A stretch of DNA of 64,000 nucleotides from IMG/VR virus record IMGVR_UViG_3300021197_000841, positions 8,162 to 72,161 of that record. One strand, 5' to 3'. Every line of letters begins with the position of its first letter. The first letter of the stretch is position 1. Origin of the DNA: a virus. The translations under genes and the position numbers were made by a program. This document shows positions 3,128 through 53,459 of this stretch, one piece after another. The notes under the pieces were generated by a model. That model was not told the origin of the DNA, ran no database searches, and saw only the letters and a list, made by a program, of their open reading frames with translations.

Positions 3128-5065
3128 TTATGAGTCTTGAGTAAACCTTTTTGTCCATAGTGTAAGACTGTATTTAACGCCTTCTTCCAACTCTTCACAT
3201 ACATGCGGGTGGGTAACTTGTCCGGGCCACAATAGCATAACGCCTCTGGGTACATGCCTATTTGTGAAGTGCTGTCTGGGGAAAGTTAATTCGGCACCCT
3301 GGTAGTCTTCATTTAATTTAACACTTCCACTTACCATGCTGGCATCGTTATGTAAGTTTAATGATGTTTGTGTATCTAAACTGTAACGCATAGCAAAGTA
3401 ATCTCTTATACCGTACATGCTCATAGGCGGCCAATATGCTTCTAGTTGCGGCCAAACATGCTTTGTTAAATTCTTTTCCATTTCTTTATAAAGATTAGGA
3501 CAAAGTTTTTGTATTCTTATTTCCTGTGCCGGATAGGCATCGTCAGGTCTAGGTTCCCATCCACCGAGTTGGTCACATGCTCCAATAATATCATCACACA
3601 TTTGAGGTGTTAAATATTCACATGCTACTATATCATCTGCTACTGTCCAAATTTTATGATACCTAGCAAAGTTAATAGGAACAACCGCACCTCTATTAAA
3701 TAGTTGGTTTACTAGACGTTGATATGCTTTTTTATCTTCGTCGCCACCATTACCATGTAACACACAACTATAGCAACCTGTTTCTTTATTGTATACTTGG
3801 TTATTATCTGACACACTTAAACTGTTAGCAGTACCACTCACACATTGAAATATATAATTTTCTATATCTAATTTAATATTCCAATTGCCTGATAAAAATA
3901 ATTTTTGATAATATAGTTGATCGTCATCTGCTTTATTAATATCCGTGCGTAACATTTCTTTTATAACACTTGCTTTACCAATAAACCCGCCACTGTTTAA
4001 AAATCTATTCCTTGTGTGTACTTGTGGGAATTGTTCTGCTATACTATTGTCTGGCCATATTAACGGTTCGGCGCCAAACACTACATCTGCTCCAAACTGT
4101 TTAAAGCGATTTACCAACTCTGTTTCCGTATCGTTGATAACAACATCGTATCCGTCGACAAACATAACTATATCGCGGTCATCGACATTACGCAATCTAC
4201 TTCTTAAATAATGTACTTTGTGACCTCCGCCTGGGCCATCTGCCATTACACCGCCTTGCCATTTTTCGCCTACGCCTAACATTTCTAAATGTAGATTATG
4301 TATCTCGCAACTCTTAATAAGTTGTTCTGCTTTTTTACTCTCTGTTGCTACAGTAAACAATCTAAAGTCTTTCCATTCCTTAAATCTTAGATTATTTTCT
4401 GTGTCTGTTTTACCTATTGCTGTTTCTCTTTTGTGAGGAGTAAAAATATTATTTTTATATGCTAAGCCTTTTAATTTTGGTAAATCTTTAAACTCTGGAT
4501 ATAAGTCAGCATGTGGACTTGTACCTAACATCATTGGCAAATATTCGTCTGCTGGTATAATGTTTTTTACAGCGACATTGTTTAATAATTTACTTGCTCC
4601 TTGTACACTTAATGCGTATGCGGCCGTCCAATAACAGTATCCTGGTATTTCAAATAAATCATCAAACCCTTGAGCATTATTATCCATATTATACTTGGAT
4701 AGATACACTAAGTCAAATTCATCTAGCCGTTCTGATATCTGAGTAATATTATAGTTGTCTGTGCTATGATATAAATCATCTTCTATGATGATGCCTGGCT
4801 TGCCACTAGTAACAATTTTACTCCAGGCAGTAATATGGCTTAGTGTACATCCTACTTCGCCTGGTGTAAGTGGTCTATCTTCTATTGGGTCTAACCATCT
4901 ACTATTAACCGCCATCTTATTATCTAATACTTTTTGATAATCTACTAATGTTCCGTCTACGGCATTGATACGTTCAAAGTCAGATATATCTAACTTTTCA
5001 AATAATTGCTCAGTATTCTCTTTGCGGTCTATTCGTTTTTCTAAATTAATATAATAGTGCTTCAT
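3128..5065 (-). CDS. GT25 (COLGALT-like) + PLOD-type glycosyltransferase + lysyl-hydroxylase-like 2OG-Fe(II) dioxygenase fusion
   Basis: GT25 motifs: INLEKRIDR, AVDG, GEVGCTLSH, IEDD, YWTAAYALS. PLOD-GT motifs: TVAT, LGVGEKWQGG, GGGHKV, MFVDGYDV, FLNSGGFIG, DDQLYY, HGNG. Dioxygenase motifs: HND...THPH. Start at 5065 gives an ATGA overlap with the upstream stop. Confidence 0.85.
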   Translation of the reverse strand: MKHYYINLEKRIDRKENTEQLFEKLDISDFERINAVDGTLVDYQKVLDNKMAVNSRWLDPIEDRPLTPGEVGCTLSHITAWSKIVTSGKPGIIIEDDLYHSTDNYNITQISERLDEFDLVYLSKYNMDNNAQGFDDLFEIPGYCYWTAAYALSVQGASKLLNNVAVKNIIPADEYLPMMLGTSPHADLYPEFKDLPKLKGLAYKNNIFTPHKRETAIGKTDTENNLRFKEWKDFRLFTVATESKKAEQLIKSCEIHNLHLEMLGVGEKWQGGVMADGPGGGHKVHYLRSRLRNVDDRDIVMFVDGYDVVINDTETELVNRFKQFGADVVFGAEPLIWPDNSIAEQFPQVHTRNRFLNSGGFIGKASVIKEMLRTDINKADDDQLYYQKLFLSGNWNIKLDIENYIFQCVSGTANSLSVSDNNQVYNKETGCYSCVLHGNGGDEDKKAYQRLVNQLFNRGAVVPINFARYHKIWTVADDIVACEYLTPQMCDDIIGACDQLGGWEPRPDDAYPAQEIRIQKLCPNLYKEMEKNLTKHVWPQLEAYWPPMSMYGIRDYFAMRYSLDTQTSLNLHNDASMVSGSVKLNEDYQGAELTFPRQHFTNRHVPRGVMLLWPGQVTHPHVCEELEEGVKYSLTLWTKRFTQDS

Positions 5066-39078: not shown

Positions 39079-39123
39079 TGTAATAAATAATATTTGTAAA
39101 TTAACTAACATTGTAGGACCACA

Positions 39124-39393
39124 ATGACCACAGATAAAATTATTAAAAAAATTATTAGCACGTTTAAAGAATTACAATTACGTTCTAATGAAATCAACCA
39201 CGCATCAGGCGAACTTGTTTTAGCAACATGTATTCAAAAAGATAGAAGAGGAAAGTATGACAGTTTAGGCTTTTACAATGTAAAAACTAAAAGATATGCT
39301 TTAGTCTTTATTCGTGATTATATTGCTAGGAATGTTAATCATATTCCAGAACTTGATCAGATGCGTTCACTTGTAAAAGAATCTGCTCTATAG
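39124..39393 (+). CDS. hypothetical protein (89 aa)
   Basis: ORF with AGGA RBS and an upstream AATAAATA box (39082-39089). Confidence 0.55.
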   Translation: MTTDKIIKKIISTFKELQLRSNEINHASGELVLATCIQKDRRGKYDSLGFYNVKTKRYALVFIRDYIARNVNHIPELDQMRSLVKESAL

Positions 39394-39398
39394 AAGCA

Positions 39399-39605
39399 AT
39401 GACTAATAACAGAATTAACAATTCTCTAAATAACACACTTGAAGAAGAACTTAGGGTTATGCTTGTAGAAAAGAATAACGAAAACCGAGAGTTAAGAGCA
39501 CAAGTTAAAATTTTAGAGGATTGTGTTGCTGAAGAACAAGAAGCAAAATATAGAGCATGGGTTAAATTAGCCGATCTTAAAAAAAGTACTGGTACTACAG
39601 AGTAG
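39399..39605 (+). CDS. small coiled-coil protein (68 aa)
   Basis: Heptad-like 'LEEELRVMLVEKNNENRELRAQVKILE'; follows the previous ORF directly. Confidence 0.55.
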   Translation: MTNNRINNSLNNTLEEELRVMLVEKNNENRELRAQVKILEDCVAEEQEAKYRAWVKLADLKKSTGTTE

Positions 39606-48096: not shown

Positions 48097-49869
48097 ATGC
48101 TAAACATAAAAAACATCAGTGTGAAGAATTTCATGAGCGTTGGTAATAACGTTCAAGGTGTTAGATTCGACGACAAACACTTAACACTTGTATTAGGAAA
48201 CAACCTAGACCTAGGTGGTGACGGTAGCAGAAATGGTACAGGCAAGACTACTATTATTAACGCTCTAAGTTATGCGTTATACGGCGAAGCACTAACCAAC
48301 ATTAGACGTGATAATTTAATTAACAAAACAAACGGCAAGGGCATGATTGTTTCTTGCGACTTTGAACTTAACGGTATAGAGTATCGCATAGAAAGGGGAA
48401 GACGTCCTAATGTGTTACGTTTATTTGTTAATGGTACAGAACAAGAAGATCAAGAACAGCAAGGCGATAGCAGAGAAACACAAAAACAAATAGAAAAAAT
48501 TATCGGCTTTAGTCATCAAATGTTTAAGCACATTGTTGCTCTAAATACTTACACAGAACCTTTCCTTGGTATGAAGAATAACGACCAACGAGATATGATA
48601 GAACAGTTGTTAGGTATTCAAGAACTTTCGCAAAAAGCAGAAATTCTAAAAGACAGAATGAAGGACACTAGAGATAATATTAAAGAAGAAGAATTCCGTA
48701 TTAGTGCTATGAAAGATAGCAATGAGCGTATGGACAAAAATATCAAAGAACTAGAAAGTCGTAGCAATGCCTGGGAACGAAACAAGTCTGTTAAACTAAA
48801 CGAAATGGCTGATGCGTTAGAGCAACTAAAAGAAATTGATATTGATCGCGAGGTTGAAAAACATAATACATTAGTTGTTATTAAAGATCACGAAGCAAAC
48901 TTAAATATATTATCAAACAATTTAACAAACACCCTTAACTCTTTTAAAAGAAGTAAAACTAAACTAAGCGAACTAGAGGCTAATTTAGTTAAAGCAAAGG
49001 AAGGCGTGTGCCCCACATGTGAACAAGGTACAGCACATTTAGACACACATGAAGCATACACAAAAGATTTAGAAACCAAGATAGCAGAAGAAAAAGAATA
49101 CTTCACAGGTTTAACTATTAAAGAAGAAGATTTAAAAGATGGCATAGAAACACTAGGACCTGTTGAAGAAAGACCCAGTACGTTTTATAAAACATTAGAA
49201 GAAGCACTTACACATCGTAATAATGTTGATAATTTAATAGACAGCATTAGCACAAAGCACACTGAAGAAAATCCATACATAGAACAAATAGAATCTATGA
49301 AACAAAGTGGTATACAAGAAATCAGTTGGGACACAATCAACGAACTCACAGCACTAAAAGATCATCAAGAATTTTTATATAAACTACTAACAAGCAAAGA
49401 CAGTTTTATCAGAAGACGTATTATTGATCAAAACATTGCTTACTTGAATCACAGATTAGCACACTACTTAGATGCTATTGGCTTACCGCATGACGTTAAA
49501 TTTAACAGCGACCTAAGTACAGAGATTACAGAATACGGCAGAGATTTAGACTTCGATAATCTAAGCAGGGGCGAACGTAACAGACTTATACTGAGTTTGA
49601 GTTGGGCATTTAGAGATATATTCGAAAGTCTTAATCACCCAATGAACTTCCTGTGTATCGACGAACTTATTGACAGTGGCTTAGATGCTACAGGTGTCGA
49701 GAATGCGTTAGGTATACTTAAGAAAATGAGTAGAGAGCAGAACAAAAACATTATGCTTATATCACACAGAGAAGAACTAAGTGGCAGAGTTAATGATGTA
49801 TTGTATGTGATCAAGGAAGGAGGCTTCACTAGTTACAACACGGACACAGAATATGTAGGCGATAAGTGA
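48097..49869 (+). CDS. gp46: recombination ATPase, Rad50/SbcC-like
   Basis: Walker A NGTGKTT, coiled coil with CPTC zinc hook, signature LSRGE, Walker B CIDE, ISH. Confidence 0.93.
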   Translation: MLNIKNISVKNFMSVGNNVQGVRFDDKHLTLVLGNNLDLGGDGSRNGTGKTTIINALSYALYGEALTNIRRDNLINKTNGKGMIVSCDFELNGIEYRIERGRRPNVLRLFVNGTEQEDQEQQGDSRETQKQIEKIIGFSHQMFKHIVALNTYTEPFLGMKNNDQRDMIEQLLGIQELSQKAEILKDRMKDTRDNIKEEEFRISAMKDSNERMDKNIKELESRSNAWERNKSVKLNEMADALEQLKEIDIDREVEKHNTLVVIKDHEANLNILSNNLTNTLNSFKRSKTKLSELEANLVKAKEGVCPTCEQGTAHLDTHEAYTKDLETKIAEEKEYFTGLTIKEEDLKDGIETLGPVEERPSTFYKTLEEALTHRNNVDNLIDSISTKHTEENPYIEQIESMKQSGIQEISWDTINELTALKDHQEFLYKLLTSKDSFIRRRIIDQNIAYLNHRLAHYLDAIGLPHDVKFNSDLSTEITEYGRDLDFDNLSRGERNRLILSLSWAFRDIFESLNHPMNFLCIDELIDSGLDATGVENALGILKKMSREQNKNIMLISHREELSGRVNDVLYVIKEGGFTSYNTDTEYVGDK

Positions 49870-50516
49870 GCGGTTGGGAAGGCGATAACACACAACGGCT
49901 TATAGAACTTGTAGGCGGTGATGTTCACGAAGACTTCCAGGCATTAAAGCAACGGTCTATAGATGCTCACAATCTTAGATTTGCAGACTACATAAACACC
50001 AGTGATATAGTTCTAGACTTTGGCAGTGGATTAGGCTTTGGTGCCAACGCATTTGCTGACACCGTATCGCAATACATTTGTGCCGATGTATCTAGATCTA
50101 TGCTGATGTCCGCACACCAAAATATATCACACCATAGCAATATCGAACTTAAACTTATATCACGCAATAATTTGTCTGCTTTAAAAGATTATAAATTTAC
50201 AAAAATAATTTCACATGCTGTTTTTGTGCACTTAGAAATACCTGAAATAATTTACTATCTAAAACAATTTAAAAACATACTAGCAGACAATGGGGAAGTA
50301 TTATTTACATACAAAAACTTAGACTTATTAAATGTAAACGATCACTTGCTTACAGAACACACAGAAAGACTTATGCGTAATAGAGAATTTCAAACTCGCA
50401 GTATAAGTTATGTAAGTCCTACCGTTATTAAGAATGTCGCAGAGCAATTAGATTATAAGTATATAGAAGTCGAATGCGATGAGTTTGATCGTACAGCGAG
50501 ATTAATTAATGAGTAA
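49866..50516 (+). CDS. class I SAM-dependent methyltransferase
   Basis: 'VLDFGSGLG', 'ADVS..ML', 'SHAVFVHL', 'LADNG'. Confidence 0.8.
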   Translation: MSGWEGDNTQRLIELVGGDVHEDFQALKQRSIDAHNLRFADYINTSDIVLDFGSGLGFGANAFADTVSQYICADVSRSMLMSAHQNISHHSNIELKLISRNNLSALKDYKFTKIISHAVFVHLEIPEIIYYLKQFKNILADNGEVLFTYKNLDLLNVNDHLLTEHTERLMRNREFQTRSISYVSPTVIKNVAEQLDYKYIEVECDEFDRTARLINE

Positions 50517-50934
50517 ATGGTTACACAATGGTAAAGCAATAGAATCGCTACCGGAAGATTGCGAAGCATTTGTATATCTTATTACTAATAACACAAATGA
50601 CAAAAAGTATGTTGGCAAGAAACTAGCAAAGTTTAAAACAACCAAACCCCCACTGAAAGGCAAAAAGAACAAACGTAGAGGCACCAAGGAATCAGATTGG
50701 CAAACTTACTGGGGCAGTTCAGACAATTTAAAAGAAGACGTTTTAGCACTTGGAGAAGATAAATTTACCAGAGAAATTTTATACTTTTGTCCTAGCAGAG
50801 GCGTCGCTAGTTACCTAGAGGCTAGAGAACAGTTCGAAAGAAGAGTACTACTCTCAGATGACTACTACAATGGAATTATCAACGTTCGAGTTGGTGGTTC
50901 AAAAATCTTACGTGAAGGTCTCAAAGACCGATAA
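50509..50934 (+). CDS. small GIY-YIG endonuclease (T4 EndoII-like size)
   Basis: 'AFVYLITN...KKYVGKK', 'YWGSS', 'FTREIL', 'YLE', 'YYN'. Confidence 0.8.
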   Translation: MSKWLHNGKAIESLPEDCEAFVYLITNNTNDKKYVGKKLAKFKTTKPPLKGKKNKRRGTKESDWQTYWGSSDNLKEDVLALGEDKFTREILYFCPSRGVASYLEAREQFERRVLLSDDYYNGIINVRVGGSKILREGLKDR

Positions 50935-50975
50935 CTAATTGCTGAAGAACACAAAAAAACACGGCAAATTCAGAC

Positions 50976-51439
50976 ACCAAGTCTAACTCACATTACGGCA
51001 CACACATAGGACTATACACCCGCCCCAACAGAGGCATTGAATATCTGGCTCCTCGACAATCCGGCAATGGAAACACCCGGTGCGAGATTATTGGAGATGT
51101 ATAGCGGCAAAGATACAAACACACGACAAACAGTATTAGAAGAATGTAGGCACTGAGAAAAAGCAACCTACAAGTTTGTATAACAGAACTCTACAATGTT
51201 ATACAGACTTCCGTGAGATTCGAGACGGTAGTGTATGGGGAGAGAAGGCTCACCGCTTCCTAATAGCACCCGAGTTAGAGATGGTAATGGTTCACTTGAT
51301 GACCCCTTTCATTGTTCTCCTTGCTTAAGGAGAATTATGGCTCAAGTTACTTGATAACTTTAATCTTAAAAACATTGCAAACAAAAACGATATGAACGAA
51401 GTGAATGAAGTTTGTAGTTGGCAAAGACACGAAGTGTCT
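50976..51439 (+). ncRNA. candidate large structured non-coding RNA (core 50976-51285 plus 3' hairpins)
   Basis: 531-nt gap in an otherwise gapless genome; at least 10 mutually compatible helices including long-range ones (see findings). Family not recognised. Confidence 0.6.
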
Positions 51440-51465
51440 AATAAAGTAAACACATAAATATTAAT

Positions 51466-52374
51466 ATGATACCAGTACAAGATAATTGGATGCACATAAA
51501 AAGTGAATTTATAGATAGTTGTGAGTCTGATATCAACAACATACAAAAATTCAAACAACTGGGTTTATTCAAAATGTTATTGCCTACTTCAATGGGTGGT
51601 ATAGATGGTCACTTACAAGACTTACTGGAATGTCAACTACAGTTGAGTCAGCATTGTGTAGACACAGCAAACAAGTATATACGTTGTGCGAGTGCTCCGT
51701 ATTTGATAAAACAGTTCGGAGAGGAAGTATTCCAAGAAGTATACGGGCAGGATAACGATGCGTTGGTATTGTTGTACCCCGGAGATCTAGAAACTGCTAG
51801 AACTATGACAGTAGAGTCTATATACGATTGGATTATAGTACAACATGATGCGGATTACTGTTTGCTTAATGTGGCGGATAGAAATTTTGGGCCGGAGCGG
51901 TATGTACTAAGCCTCGACACAATGTACAACAACACACAGATACTATCTTGGTTTCAACTGTATAATAGAGTGCTTACAGCAAGTGCTATTGGTAGCCTGG
52001 AACATGTATGCCGCATACTGATGAACACCGCTTACAACGACTTATACGCAGTCTTAGGCATGGTTTTAAGTGAGGCCGATGAAATGAAACTGGTGTTACA
52101 CAGGAATATAAACCACGCATTGCTACACATACAGGATGGTGAACAAATACCTTTATATGATCGTACCAAATACAAGGTACAGAGCACACATTCATATATA
52201 AAAGCAGTAAAATACCTGAAAAAAGTCGTTAATTTAACCGATAACAAAGAGGTTAGGAGTATATATGCTCAGGTTAACTCAATGGATTTAGAGCATTTAA
52301 ATAACGTTAAACAGGATTATAAGGGGTATATTATGTATCTTAACAGCAATATACTTGTCGATACATACTTGTAA
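51466..52374 (+). CDS. divergent acyl-CoA-dehydrogenase-fold / HsaA-like flavin monooxygenase homologue
   Basis: 'FKQLGLFKMLLPTSMGG', 'QFGEEVFQEVYGQDNDALV', 'DWIIV', 'ASAIGSLE'; shorter than typical family members. Confidence 0.55.
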   Translation: MIPVQDNWMHIKSEFIDSCESDINNIQKFKQLGLFKMLLPTSMGGIDGHLQDLLECQLQLSQHCVDTANKYIRCASAPYLIKQFGEEVFQEVYGQDNDALVLLYPGDLETARTMTVESIYDWIIVQHDADYCLLNVADRNFGPERYVLSLDTMYNNTQILSWFQLYNRVLTASAIGSLEHVCRILMNTAYNDLYAVLGMVLSEADEMKLVLHRNINHALLHIQDGEQIPLYDRTKYKVQSTHSYIKAVKYLKKVVNLTDNKEVRSIYAQVNSMDLEHLNNVKQDYKGYIMYLNSNILVDTYL

Positions 52375-52620
52375 TTACATTTGTTCTTGTTTCATTTGAT
52401 TTTTACCGCCCGGATTCTTTGCCGCTACATACTCTTCAAATGTTTCTATTAGTAATAATCTATCTTCGGAATCGATGCCCCAAGCATCTTCCATTCGTAC
52501 GGAGCCTTCGCTGAAAATAACTAATTCGAACACATTCTTTGTGATCGCTTTAGATTGCTCTTTTAAGGCTCCTAGGTAGTTCCTGATATCTTCAGGCTCT
52601 GCTCTATCTAGGAAGTTAAG
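52375..52620 (-). CDS. unannotated -1-frame extension (81 aa) of the gp26-like gene; gp51/GT-like
   Basis: Open frame LNFLDRAEPEDIRNYLGALKEQ...KQEQM* begins at the slippery T TTT TTC (52626-52620). Its stop abuts the convergent gene's stop. Confidence 0.7.
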   Translation of the reverse strand, partial: LNFLDRAEPEDIRNYLGALKEQSKAITKNVFELVIFSEGSVRMEDAWGIDSEDRLLLIETFEEYVAAKNPGGKNQMKQEQM

Positions 52621-53459
52621 AAAAAAGTTACTGGGTCGAAGTCAATTGGTACTTCGTATTCTGCGTTGCACTCGGCACATGCTGTTTTGTGTACTTTATT
52701 AATACCACCATTATTAATACTGCTAACAGCATTATCAATTTCTTTGCCTAATGTTGATTCAATGTTGTCTACAAAGTCGACAATCTCTTCGTATTCATCA
52801 ACTACCACATCACTATCTGGTATTTTAATATATCTAATACTGTTTACAAGTACACCGTAATTAAATTGTGCTAATTTTTCAAAAGCAATACCAATATCAG
52901 CAATTCTTTCGTCTTCGCTTTCAAAATCCTCATTGCTTATTTTAGCCAATTTATTTGCTTGTTCCAGCATTGCTTTGGCAGTTTTAATACTATACAAATA
53001 ATTTGCTGGACGTATTCCAATTTCCAAACCATTTGATAATGTAAATTCGCTTAATGATTTAATTTCTTCAAAGTCTTGTACAGCAAGACCAAGATCCATA
53101 TCAAATGAATTTTCATGCCCACATTCTGGACAATCACGATCTACTGTTAATGTGCGATCTTTTTCAGAAGCGGCTCTTACTGCTACTAAAATTAACTCCA
53201 TATCCGGCGCAATAATTTCCGCAGGTTTTTTAATAGTTGGTACACAACTTTCGATGACTTTGAGAACAGCATCACCATTAAGTAATGCGTCAGGGTTTCT
53301 GACGATAAGTTCGTCTTTTGGTGTCATTGCTAATACAGGTAATTCGCCGCTTTCCGGCCAATCAATAACGTCATCGTCATAAAATTTACCGCCCGACGGC
53401 AACTGTATGTATAACTTAGGGGACCTATAAAAGTCTTTAAGTGCTTGTTTGTTTGTCAT
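52608..53459 (-). CDS. baseplate hub assembly / tail assembly chaperone, gp26-like
   Basis: 'PKLYIQLPSGG', 'AMTPKDEL', 'D.E.ILVAVRAAS', two CxxC motifs (CPEC, CAEC), C-terminal 'FDPVTFF'. Confidence 0.7.
   Translation of the reverse strand: MTNKQALKDFYRSPKLYIQLPSGGKFYDDDVIDWPESGELPVLAMTPKDELIVRNPDALLNGDAVLKVIESCVPTIKKPAEIIAPDMELILVAVRAASEKDRTLTVDRDCPECGHENSFDMDLGLAVQDFEEIKSLSEFTLSNGLEIGIRPANYLYSIKTAKAMLEQANKLAKISNEDFESEDERIADIGIAFEKLAQFNYGVLVNSIRYIKIPDSDVVVDEYEEIVDFVDNIESTLGKEIDNAVSSINNGGINKVHKTACAECNAEYEVPIDFDPVTFFLTS

What the first reader, a model, noticed from the sequence alone, without database searches (positions are those of the whole stretch)
50976..51360. Unrecognised large multi-junction structured RNA directly downstream of a GIY-YIG nuclease gene
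Seen: this is the largest non-coding gap in the window (50935-51465), and it folds by eye into nested, compatible helices. Closing stem: ACCA-ag-TCTAACTC (50976-89) pairs with GAGTTAGA-ga-TGGT (51272-85), ~290 nt apart, with a purine 2x2 internal loop. Domain 1 is closed by CTATACA (51012-18)/TGTATAG (51098-104) and contains CTCC/GGAG, TCG/CGA, CCGG/CCGG and a TG-GAAA-CA GNRA cap (51068-75). Domain 2 is closed by TATTAG-AAG (51134-42)/CTT-c-CTAATA (51256-65) and encloses TGTAGG/CCTACA (51145-72), a 13-bp stem with one G-U pair (51173-85/51197-209), CCGT/ACGG (51211-28) and GGgGAG/CTCaCC. Two more hairpins follow (51315-34, 51344-60). Two loops carry UGAGA, a T-loop-like motif. G-U pairs and the GNRA loop favour a + strand RNA. 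I do not recognise it as tRNA, tmRNA, RNase P or a group I/II intron. Inference: a novel phage ncRNA. It may partner the compact, basic GIY-YIG protein encoded 40 nt upstream (by analogy with HEARO/OMEGA nuclease-RNA pairs), or act in replication with gp46/47.
Basis: partly seen in the sequence, partly recalled or inferred. Interest (0 to 1): 0.9.

Follow-up and report, generated by a model that had tools for sequence, protein, structure and literature searches.

The report
New large structured RNA in marine phages
The gap holds a previously undescribed, strongly conserved and pseudoknotted non-coding RNA of about 350-450 bases found in many uncultured marine T4-like phages, whose function is still unknown.

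Summary
The finding is real, but the drawn fold and the proposed mechanism need correcting. Window 50935-51465 is the largest ORF-free gap. It holds a + strand structured RNA, with a core at about 51008-51360 and two 3' hairpins reaching 51439.

- **Conservation:** homologues lie in at least 120 viral contigs and carry no conserved ORF.
- **Structure:** on 65 sequences, 96.5% of cells pair in a 92-pair model. Compensatory changes occur in 61 of the 92 pairs, against 14-20 in slid controls. The model includes two pseudoknots.
The closing stem, the domain-2 closing stem, CCGT/ACGG, GGgGAG/CTCaCC and the 51344-60 hairpin are not.
- **Known families:** nothing matches in Rfam 15, ARAGORN, cultured phages or the 80 genome loci tested.
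- **Expression:** RNA-library contigs from four studies centre on the RNA.
- **Unexplained feature:** two direct-repeat tracts flank hairpin 51315-34 and co-vary by identity.
- **GIY-YIG link:** linkage to the upstream gene is strong, 77 of 81 loci. An RNA-protein complex is still unlikely. The protein is nearly invariant while the RNA body is swapped or replaced by a small ORF.

The function is unknown.

The parts
50509..50934 (+). SegE-type GIY-YIG gene (141 aa) directly upstream of the RNA
   Evidence: Pfam PF19835 E = 9.7e-33, matching profile positions 1-123 of 123. phrog_447 E = 7.6e-36. Nearly invariant across locus types.
50955..51005 (+). A/C-rich leader with GGCACA-type repeats and one CAGACACCAAGTCTAACTC unit (mini-hairpin AGAC/GTCT).
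   Evidence: Poorly aligned and variable in copy number: 1-3 units in related loci. No conserved pairing to 51268-86.
51012..51104 (+). Domain 1: H1 51012-18/51098-104 enclosing H2 51029-32/44-47, H3 51049-52/93-96, H4 51053-55/83-85 and H5 51061-64/77-80
   Evidence: helices 1-5. Paired cells: 99.0, 99.2, 78.6, 91.0 and 95.9%. Compensatory pairs: 3/7, 4/4, 2/4, 0/3 and 3/4.
51112..51137 (+). H6 hairpin GATAC/GTATT
   Evidence: helix 6: 100% paired, 2 of 5 pairs compensatory, G-U in 56 of 63 sequences.
51145..51172 (+). H7 hairpin with the near-invariant loop GGCnCUGAGAAAAAGCAACC
   Evidence: helix 7: 99.2% paired. The loop is invariant in A2 and A3. It was used as the search pattern.
51174..51208 (+). 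H8, a 12-bp hairpin whose loop (51189-93) forms pseudoknot 1 with 51276-80
   Evidence: helix 8: 11 of 12 pairs compensatory. Helix 9 (pseudoknot 1): 95.9% paired, 4 of 5 compensatory. By my reading of A3 the pairing is longer (about 7 bp) in the divergent members.
51213..51272 (+). Pseudoknotted core: pseudoknot 2 51213-17/51249-53, H10 51226-28/51270-72 with 51231-34/51266-69, and H11 51238-42/51256-60
   Evidence: helices 10-12: all 100% paired; 4/5, 3/7 and 3/5 pairs compensatory. In one search pseudoknot 2 is 94.2% paired on 76 sequences. Paired variants read from A2/A3 include GUGAG/CUCAC, GUGGG/CCCAC, GUAAG/CUUAC, GUUGG/CCAAC and GCGUA/UACGC.
51283..51305 (+). Tract A, the first of two co-varying direct repeats (ATGGTAATGGTTCACTTGATGAC)
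   Evidence: Identity covariation with tract B, for example 51296:51351 AA 37, TT 14, GG 14. Statistic.
51315..51334 (+). H12 hairpin TTCTCCTT/AAGGAGAA between the two tracts. A short outer helix probably extends it: a YCAU in the spacer pairs with the AUGR that starts tract B.
   Evidence: helix 13: 92.3% paired, 4 of 8 pairs compensatory. The outer helix is my reading.
51337..51358 (+). Tract B, the second direct repeat (ATGGCTCAAGTTACTTGATAAC). It holds a 2-6 codon mini-ORF whose peptide is not conserved.
   Evidence: RNA-library contigs end at 51339-51366.
51376..51423 (+). H13, a long irregular hairpin
   Evidence: helices 14-16: 7/7, 2/2 and 2/2 pairs compensatory. U-G in 9 sequences at one pair, which favours the + strand.
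51425..51439 (.). H14 hairpin AGACAC-GAA-GTGTCT. On the - strand it is followed by TTTT, so it is probably the terminator of the convergent baseplate-hub transcription unit.
   Evidence: helix 17: 100% paired, 4 of 6 pairs compensatory. All 378 cells are Watson-Crick. Sequence; the hub gene lies downstream in 28 of 55 loci.

Best explanation
Window ~51008-51360 (+ strand) encodes a member of a previously undescribed family of large, pseudoknotted non-coding RNAs. The family occurs in uncultured marine T4-like phages related to pelagimyophages.

**Shown**
- The RNA is modular. One 'body' has domain 1, hairpins H6-H8 and a double-pseudoknot core. In related phages a different body replaces it.
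- Downstream lies a conserved 3' module: tract A, hairpin H12, tract B. The two tracts are 8-20 nt direct repeats that stay identical to each other while they vary between phages.
- Next come hairpin H13 and a hairpin (H14) that looks like the terminator of the convergent late operon.

**Inferred**
- The RNA accumulates as a stable product of the transcription unit that ends with the GIY-YIG gene.
- It acts through its 3' module. Two segments kept identical are the signature of segments that must both fit one complementary partner.
- For the AUGR starts of the two tracts, that partner is probably the YCAU spacer in front of H12. That would make an alternative-pairing switch.
- For the tract cores the partner lies outside the element. 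It could be an RNA or DNA encoded elsewhere in the phage or in the host.
- The neighbouring GIY-YIG gene is most likely a conserved gene bordering a variable slot of the genome, not an obligate protein partner.
For: **Family and conservation**
- 44 of 84 loci fetched through flanking proteins match the gap at 70-100% identity.
- nhmmer gave 149 hits over 202 loci, of which 65 are distinct full-length copies.
- No ORF is shared.

**Structure**
- In the 92-pair model 96.5% of cells pair, against 84.8% in shuffles.
- 61 pairs show compensatory change, against 37.2 in shuffles and 14-20 in slid controls.
- The covariation score is 0.374, against 0.044-0.089 slid; 0 of 500 shuffles reach it.
- With 19 divergent members added, 32 of 40 pairs are compensatory.
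- RNAalifold on its own predicts 74 pairs, 49 of them compensatory.

**Strand:** 467 G-U cells against 27 A-C cells.

**Expression**
- RNA-library contigs of four studies cover 50971-51366.
- In run X15 single contigs over the RNA have depth 12.9-46.6. The contig over the GIY-YIG gene has 8.06 and the one over the next gene 3.89.

**Modularity**
- Model R1 (body) hits 45 of 80 GIY-YIG loci.
- Model R2 (3' module) hits 10 of the 21 R1-negative loci that have enough downstream sequence. Their bodies are unrelated.

**Twin tracts**
- Identity covariation appears at six column pairs.
- Of the 6 nt before GAU, a mean of 4.27 are identical in 15 distinct A/B combinations. Shuffled partners give 2.97 +/- 0.24, with a maximum of 3.87 in 2000 shuffles.
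- The same relation holds in divergent and type-2 members.
- The purine after the AUG of tract A and of tract B: GG 21, AA 29, other 13, of 63 rows scored.

**Protein independent of RNA type:**
Against: - No function has been tested.
- No complement of the tracts was found in the element, in the 64-kb window or in the held flanks of 64 loci, where 8 had scattered 8-mer matches. The 'common partner' is therefore an inference.
- The contigs laid cannot show RNA ends, strand or true levels. DNA carry-over in RNA libraries cannot be excluded.
- The sequences are related to each other, and my structure was derived from the same alignments on which it was counted. The shuffle and slide controls therefore overstate significance. 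R-scape was not available.
- The spacer/AUGR helix is read by eye and was not counted with a tool.
- The strong gene linkage (77 of 81) would also fit a functional tie to the nuclease.
Confidence: 0.45

Rival explanations
1. The RNA is the partner of the GIY-YIG nuclease. It would guide, target or regulate the 141-aa catalytic-domain-only protein, with the twin tracts serving as guide or target-mimic segments.
For: - The gene lies on the same strand within 1.5 kb upstream in 77 of 81 RNA-fetched loci. The RNA hit starts within 20 nt of its end in 53 of those 77.
- The protein is a bare GIY-YIG domain with a basic segment and no recognisable DNA-binding domain.
- The RNA ends in a variable tract.
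Against: - Of the 66 GIY-YIG loci with at least 985 nt downstream, 11 have neither RNA model. Nine have a small ORF in its place.
- Melnitz and three cyanophages have the protein but no RNA.
- The protein does not change with RNA type.
- ORFs can be inserted between the gene and the RNA.
- One divergent RNA (L183) has no GIY-YIG gene nearby.
- No GIY-YIG enzyme is known to me to use an RNA guide (recalled, not searched systematically).
Confidence: 0.12
2. A cis-acting regulatory element, riboswitch-like. The body would sense a signal and the 3' module would be an expression platform. In that platform the spacer pairs either with the start of tract A or with the start of tract B. This would expose or hide the Shine-Dalgarno-like arm of H12 and the AUG at 51337.
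For: - The 3' arm of H12 is purine-rich (AAGGAGAA, AGGTGAA, GGGTGAA) and lies 2 nt before a conserved ATG.
- The architecture is a variable body plus a constant platform.
- Alternative pairing is suggested by the identical AUGR starts.
- In type-3 loci a similar start context opens a real 38-aa ORF.
Against: - The ORF at tract B is only 2-6 codons in the 33 of 99 sequences my pattern found, and its peptide is not conserved.
- In type-2 members H12 is GGAACC/GGTTCC and often has no ATG.
- Nothing lies downstream to regulate except terminator-like hairpins and a convergent gene.
Confidence: 0.15
3. A self-assembling 'ornate' RNA of the GOLLD/ROOL kind, or an anti-defence decoy. It would act as an RNA-only particle or sponge, carried in a variable region of the phage genome.
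For: - The size, the pseudoknots, the phage restriction and the apparent abundance.
- The position in a slot whose content varies between relatives.
- GOLLD, ROOL and OLE are reported to form homo-oligomers (PMC12286853; search listing and abstract only).
Against: - There is no sequence or model similarity to those families.
- No evidence of oligomerisation.
- The twin tracts are not self-complementary in most members.
Confidence: 0.15
4. A DNA-level or replication element. The transcript would form an R-loop primer, or the direct repeats would be protein-binding iterons or recombination sites.
For: - Direct repeats kept identical.
- GGCACA-type repeats about 10 nt apart upstream.
- The neighbourhood of recombination genes.
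Against: - 467 G-U against 27 A-C cells and 61 compensatory pairs show selection on a folded + strand RNA.
- No joint that skips the stretch between the tracts was seen in the contigs laid.
Confidence: 0.06
5. Chance structure or a decayed gene: the gap is a pseudogene remnant with no function.
For: The single-sequence folding energy is only marginal: z = -1.93, and 5 of 100 shuffles fold as well.
Against: Conservation without an ORF in dozens of contigs, together with the covariation.
Confidence: 0.01

Closest known systems
GOLLD and ROOL RNAs (large ornate RNAs associated with phages and prophages; Rfam families)
   Same: Several hundred nucleotides, many helices and pseudoknots, phage-borne, function unknown, found by comparative analysis.
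   Different: No match to any Rfam model. A different architecture: a swappable body plus twin direct-repeat tracts. Fixed position after a GIY-YIG gene rather than near tRNA genes (the tRNA association of GOLLD/ROOL is recalled).
HEARO/omega-RNA with IscB, and TnpB with its omega-RNA (OMEGA systems)
   Same: A structured RNA gene lies immediately beside a small nuclease gene. As with TnpB, the RNA lies at the 3' side and ends in a variable segment (TnpB layout recalled).
   Different: The nuclease is a GIY-YIG domain, not RuvC/HNH. The protein occurs without the RNA and does not co-vary with it. No transposon ends. The variable tract is duplicated inside the RNA.
Free-standing Seg-type GIY-YIG endonuclease genes beside structured RNA genes (T4 segB in the tRNA cluster; recalled)
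   Same: A SegE-family GIY-YIG gene lies next to a conserved RNA gene. In cyanophage S-RIM8 the homologue sits just upstream of tRNA-Arg.
   Different: This gene is not sporadic in this lineage. It is about 76-91% identical across the 80 best viral loci and keeps its catalytic motifs, which is unlike a decaying selfish endonuclease gene.
Riboswitch or attenuator expression platforms with mutually exclusive helices
   Same: Two similar segments (the AUGR starts of tracts A and B) can pair with one spacer segment next to a hairpin that carries a Shine-Dalgarno-like arm and an AUG.
   Different: No regulated gene lies downstream and the ORF has only 2-6 codons. The element is far larger than known riboswitches.

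Membership tests
Any Rfam 15 family (including tmRNA, RNase P RNA, group I/II introns, GOLLD, ROOL, HEARO, IMES, glutamine riboswitch) | Score at or above the family's gathering threshold with its covariance model | tested here: not met
   0 matches in the whole window. In E-value mode over 50700-51700 the best match is SNORD111 at 20.3 bits against a gathering score of 46, E = 1.2. In 17 related loci only a tRNA and a freshwater-2 motif were found, both elsewhere.
tmRNA (one-piece or permuted two-piece) | tRNA-like domain plus tag reading frame, as detected by ARAGORN | tested here: not met
   ARAGORN finds 0 genes in the window. The tmRNA of the nearest cultured relative, Melnitz, is a different locus (gene 86; PMC9004378, passages read).
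OMEGA-type RNA-guided nuclease pair (IscB or TnpB with omega-RNA) | The nuclease belongs to the RuvC (with or without HNH) IscB/TnpB family | tested here: not met
   The only Pfam hits of the 141-aa protein are PF19835 SegE_GIY-YIG and PF01541 GIY-YIG.
OMEGA-type RNA-guided nuclease pair (IscB or TnpB with omega-RNA) | Obligate co-occurrence of the nuclease gene and its RNA | tested here: not met
   77 of 81 RNA loci have the gene upstream. But 11 of 66 gene loci with at least 985 nt downstream have no RNA model hit, and four cultured relatives have none.
OMEGA-type RNA-guided nuclease pair (IscB or TnpB with omega-RNA) | The RNA binds the protein and directs cleavage by base pairing | not testable with these tools
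   Needs biochemistry.
SegE-type GIY-YIG endonuclease (PF19835) | Full-length match to the family profile with the catalytic motifs kept | tested here: met
   E = 9.7e-33 over profile positions 1-123 of 123. In one search all 30 aligned sequences keep xVYLITN (FVYLITN in 28, FVYIITN in L014, IVYLITN in L060), Y[VI]GKK, KRR, YYNGIINVR and the E of the RE/RQ motif except L026, which has TRQIL.
SegE-type GIY-YIG endonuclease (PF19835) | Homing behaviour: sporadic presence or absence, and cleavage of alleles that lack the gene | tested here: inconclusive
   The genomic context differs between phage groups. Within this lineage the gene is constant and highly conserved. Cleavage was not testable.
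Intrinsic terminator (for H14, 51425-39) | G+C-rich hairpin followed by a U run | tested here: inconclusive
   The simple scan finds no terminator on either strand; the stem has too few G-C pairs for its rule. On the - strand the hairpin is followed by TTTT, and all 378 cells are Watson-Crick.

The most novel reading that the evidence does not exclude
The RNA is the specificity or control subunit of the conserved GIY-YIG enzyme. A bare GIY-YIG catalytic domain would be programmed, or held in check, by a large RNA whose two identical single-stranded tracts pair with nucleic acid. That would be the first RNA-partnered GIY-YIG nuclease. The swappable RNA bodies would be alternative regulatory heads.
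Probability: 0.1. Interest if true: 0.95.

Novelty: new member of a known kind. Interest (0 to 1): 0.8.

Why it matters
Large, highly structured non-coding RNAs are rare. Each of the few known classes (ribosomal RNAs, RNase P, group I/II introns, tmRNA, OLE, GOLLD, ROOL, HEARO) proved to be a ribozyme, a ribonucleoprotein core or a self-assembling particle.

This family comes with unusually clean comparative support and two pseudoknots. It also appears abundant in ocean metatranscriptomes and belongs to a widespread group of marine phages related to those of SAR11 and OM43.

Two features are unusual and open new questions:
- One genomic slot holds interchangeable RNA 'bodies' joined to one conserved 3' module.
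- Two direct-repeat tracts co-vary by identity rather than by complementarity. This points to a shared pairing partner or a conformational switch that can be tested directly.

If the RNA turns out to work with the neighbouring GIY-YIG enzyme, it would define a new type of RNA-dependent nuclease.

Tried and rejected
- **Known RNA families:** Rfam in gathering and E-value modes, and ARAGORN: nothing.
- **Coding remnant:** the longest stop-to-stop frames differ in strand and frame between homologues.
- **Cultured-phage homologues:** blastn of the window gap and of two divergent members found none. R1 and R2 do not hit Melnitz, P-SSM2, S-SRM01 or S-RIM8.
- **Cellular homologues:**
By my estimate an exact 16-mer should match a collection of that size by chance some hundreds of times.
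  - R1 on 80 of those rows gave one 21.9-bit hit (E = 0.0077), which I treat as chance. The other 40 or more rows were not examined.
- **tmRNA idea:** the Melnitz paper places its two-piece tmRNA at another locus.
- **A cis or trans complement of the twin tracts:**
  - none consistent inside the element;
  - only scattered 9-10-mers in the window;
  - 8 of 64 loci with scattered 8-mers.
- **Ideas for the tracts considered by eye and dropped**, because defining features are missing or not conserved: C/D-box or kink-turn, hammerhead core, anticodon-loop mimic, 11-nt receptor, translational bypass, mini CRISPR array, type III antitoxin repeats.
- **The tract B AUG as the start of a real gene:** rejected; the ORF has 2-6 codons.
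- **Promoter and terminator scan:** nothing above the shuffled expectation.
- **RNA contigs:**
  - they stop at about 51339-51366, and depth falls to 0.28 at 51361-51401;
  - this is only a weak hint of a 3' end, because contigs cannot show ends.
- **Tools and searches that gave nothing:**
  - the paper search was badly framed and gave nothing useful;
  - the searches found no paper describing this RNA (listings and abstracts only);
  - supplementary files of papers were not consulted, and the Melnitz supplement might list further RNA features.
Full report
**Setting**

The window is part of a 72-kb IMG/VR virus record estimated to be 20% complete, and the element occurs once in it. Around the finding lie:
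- an SbcC/gp46-like gene (48097-49869);
- a methyltransferase gene (49866-50516);
- a 141-aa SegE-type GIY-YIG gene (50509-50934; PF19835, E = 9.7e-33);
- the gap 50935-51465;
- a 302-aa gene with no family (51466-52374);
- a convergent baseplate-hub gene (52608-53459, - strand).

The nearest cultured relatives by the GIY-YIG protein are the Methylophilales phages Melnitz, at 70.4% identity. The gap is the largest ORF-free stretch of the window.

**Is it more than chance?**

As a single sequence, hardly. The + strand MFE is -96.7 kcal/mol, z = -1.93, and 5 of 100 shuffles fold as well. The - strand gives z = -1.42. The case rests on homologues.
- Of 84 loci fetched through the two flanking proteins, 44 match the gap at 70-100% DNA identity, in most directly after the GIY-YIG gene.
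- None shares an ORF: the longest stop-to-stop frames are 36-124 aa and differ in strand and frame.
- An HMM of the first alignment found 149 hits in 202 loci. There are 112 distinct sequences; 65 are full length and 34 are divergent, with scores below 70.

**Structure**

I derived a model from mutual information, RNAalifold (74 pairs, 49 with compensatory change) and inspection. I then counted it on a 65-sequence alignment (A2).
- Of 92 pairs, 96.5% of cells form standard pairs, against 84.8% in shuffles.
- 61 pairs show changes on both sides, against 37.2 in shuffles and 14-20 when the partners are slid by 1-3 columns.
- The covariation score is 0.374, against 0.044-0.089 slid. None of 500 shuffles reaches the observed values.

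Two caveats apply. The sequences are related to each other. The structure came from these same alignments, so the controls flatter it. Even so, the size of the effect and the number of distinct pair types per position leave little doubt.

The model has these parts:
- domain 1: H1 to H5, 51012-51104;
- H6;
- H7, with a near-invariant loop GGCnCUGAGAAAAAGCAACC;
- the 12-bp H8;
- a double-pseudoknot core;
- hairpin H12;
- the long H13;
- the small H14.

Pseudoknot 1 joins the H8 loop (51189-93) to 51276-80: 95.9% paired, 4 of 5 pairs compensatory. Pseudoknot 2 joins 51213-17 to 51249-53, inside the loop of H11: 100% paired, 4 of 5 compensatory. Adding 19 divergent members keeps both. In that set 32 of 40 pairs are compensatory, and pseudoknot 2 appears as GUGAG/CUCAC, GUUGG/CCAAC, GCGUA/UACGC and others.

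G-U cells outnumber A-C cells 467 to 27, so the + strand is the folded strand.

Seven of its helices are confirmed (see the observation check). Five are not. In one search five helices (26 pairs) were counted together: TG/CA, TATTAG-AAG/CTT-c-CTAATA, CCGT/ACGG, GGgGAG/CTCaCC and hairpin 51344-60. They pair no better than shuffles: 74.4% against 75.2%, with 492 of 500 shuffles as high.

The 290-nt closing stem pairs in 64.6% of cells on A1, and part of it is gapped in 22 of 33 sequences. Over 65 sequences the upstream region is no more complementary to 51268-86 than after shuffling: 6.15 against 5.78 nt.
- Its 5' arm is one copy of a short unit (CAGACACCAAGTCTAACTC) that occurs 1-3 times in related loci.
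- Its 3' arm is the partner of pseudoknot 1.

**Known families**

Nothing in Rfam 15 reaches threshold, either in the window or in 17 related loci. ARAGORN finds nothing. Melnitz was reported to carry a two-piece tmRNA and a glutamine riboswitch, but at another locus (PMC9004378, passages read). Model R1 does not hit the Melnitz region held here.

blastn of the window element and of two divergent members finds nothing among 50,697 phage records. The 16-mer scan of bacterial and archaeal genomes gave only what I take to be chance matches. R1 on 80 of the 120 or more rows gave one hit of 21.9 bits. Two literature searches found no description of this RNA (listings and abstracts only).

**Expression**

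Twenty runs from 11 studies hold the stretch, and six of them are RNA libraries. All four RNA runs that I laid are kept as contigs, which cannot show ends, strand or levels.
- In X15 the single contigs over the RNA have word depths of 12.9-46.6. The contig over the GIY-YIG gene has 8.06 and the one over the downstream gene 3.89.
- The three small-share runs, from other studies, hold contigs at 51131-51366, 51132-51302, 50971-51112 and 51135-51284. These lie on the RNA. One further contig lies at 50729-50977.
- Cover is nearly absent at 51361-51401.

I read this as moderate evidence that the RNA accumulates, and as a weak hint that it ends just after tract B.

**Modular family**

Model R1 (147 positions, H7 to pseudoknot 1) hits 45 of the 80 GIY-YIG-fetched loci. 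Every hit is on the + strand downstream of the gene. Of the 35 others, 14 have fewer than 450 nt downstream. Among the remaining 21:
- ten carry an unrelated body but the same 3' module, and model R2 hits them (seven of the ten helped build R2);
- nine carry a conserved 38-aa ORF instead;
- two carry something else.

So one genomic slot, between the GIY-YIG gene and (in 28 of 55 loci) the convergent hub gene, holds alternative cargos.

**The 3' module and the twin tracts**

Hairpin H12 (51315-34) is flanked by tract A (51283-51305) and tract B (51337-58). They are direct repeats. Their variable positions co-vary by identity, not by complementarity: 51296:51351 is AA 37, TT 14, GG 14. Five further column pairs behave the same way.

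In 15 distinct combinations a mean of 4.27 of the 6 nt before the conserved GAU are identical. With partners shuffled the mean is 2.97 +/- 0.24. The relation holds in divergent members and in type-2 members whose bodies differ.

Constant differences remain between the tracts: tract A has one extra C, and GAUGA in A corresponds to GAUAA in B. This argues against simple homogenisation of the two copies.

No complementary segment exists in the element, the window or the held flanks.

By eye, a YCAU just before H12 pairs with the AUGR that opens tract B, and C occurs at the Y position only where R is G. Tract A opens with the same AUGR; the R values of A and B are GG 21, AA 29 and other 13, of 63 rows scored. 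That pattern fits two mutually exclusive helices. The AUG of tract B opens an ORF of only 2-6 codons with no conserved peptide.

H14 is Watson-Crick in all 378 cells. On the - strand it is followed by TTTT, so it is probably the terminator of the convergent operon. The simple scan did not call it.

**The GIY-YIG link**

From the RNA side, 77 of 81 loci with at least 500 nt upstream have the gene on the same strand within 1.5 kb. Two of the four exceptions have it about 1.5 kb upstream with two ORFs in between. One divergent RNA has none, and one is only a partial hit. These loci share contigs with the gene-fetched set, so the two counts are not independent.

Against an obligate complex:
- the gene occurs without the RNA in close relatives (78-80% protein identity) and in cultured phages;
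- the protein, including its basic segment and catalytic motifs, is almost unchanged across all locus types.

In S-RIM8 the homologue sits just before tRNA genes. This recalls T4 segB in the tRNA cluster (recalled from memory, not tested).

**Verdict**

This is a real, expressed, previously undescribed large structured RNA family. Its function is unknown. My best reading is a stable RNA that acts through the twin-tract module, with the GIY-YIG gene as a neighbour rather than a partner (confidence 0.45). The rivals are a nuclease partner (0.12), a cis-regulatory switch (0.15), an ornate RNA particle or decoy (0.15), a DNA-level or replication element (0.06) and chance (0.01).

Noticed in passing
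window 39079-39594: The second-largest stretch without an ORF of at least 100 aa (516 nt). It is covered only by ORFs of 60-99 aa. It was not examined for RNA structure beyond the window-wide Rfam scan, which was negative.
   Followed up: no
window 51466-52374: The 302-aa gene downstream of the RNA has no Pfam or PHROG family. Relatives were found in only 4 viral loci. In most related loci the RNA is followed directly by the convergent baseplate-hub gene, so this gene looks like a lineage-specific insertion. The sequence CATAAATATTAAT just before its ATG resembles a T4 late promoter (recalled consensus TATAAATA).
   Followed up: partly
L046, L048, L055, L058, L062, L064, L067, L081, L085 (about 100-230 nt after the GIY-YIG stop): In nine related loci the RNA slot holds a conserved 38-aa ORF (MAQVKVLIIAASKWWYDNVSHRYEPSKHYF... 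in L046). Its start context GATTATGGCACAGG resembles the start of tract B in the window, AATTATGGCTCAAG.
   Followed up: partly
L015 3440-3520; L026 3450-3530: Tandem 20-nt units (CAGACACCAAGTCTAACTC-like, each with a mini-hairpin AGAC/GTCT) occur 2-3 times between the GIY-YIG stop and the RNA body. The window has one copy at 50970-50990. Other members have GGCACA repeats spaced about 10 nt apart. Their purpose is unknown.
   Followed up: partly
L007 3421-3978; L042 3418-3984; L197 4122-5581: Extra ORFs are inserted between the GIY-YIG gene and the RNA in some phages: about 0.55 kb in L007 and L042, and ORFs of 343 aa and 142 aa in L197 and L097.
   Followed up: no
L144 11068-11144: A freshwater-2 RNA motif (RF02980, 58 bits against a gathering score of 49.9) lies elsewhere on a contig that carries a divergent member of the RNA family.
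   Followed up: no
L070 and L071, about 3410-4080: Two loci have a 670-nt ORF-free gap after the GIY-YIG gene that neither R1 nor R2 hits. Part of it resembles domain 1 of the divergent members. It may be a further RNA variant.
   Followed up: no
L207 (S-RIM8) 1465-2183: In cyanophage S-RIM8 the GIY-YIG homologue (gp202) lies 56 nt before a small ORF and a tRNA-Arg gene.
   Followed up: no
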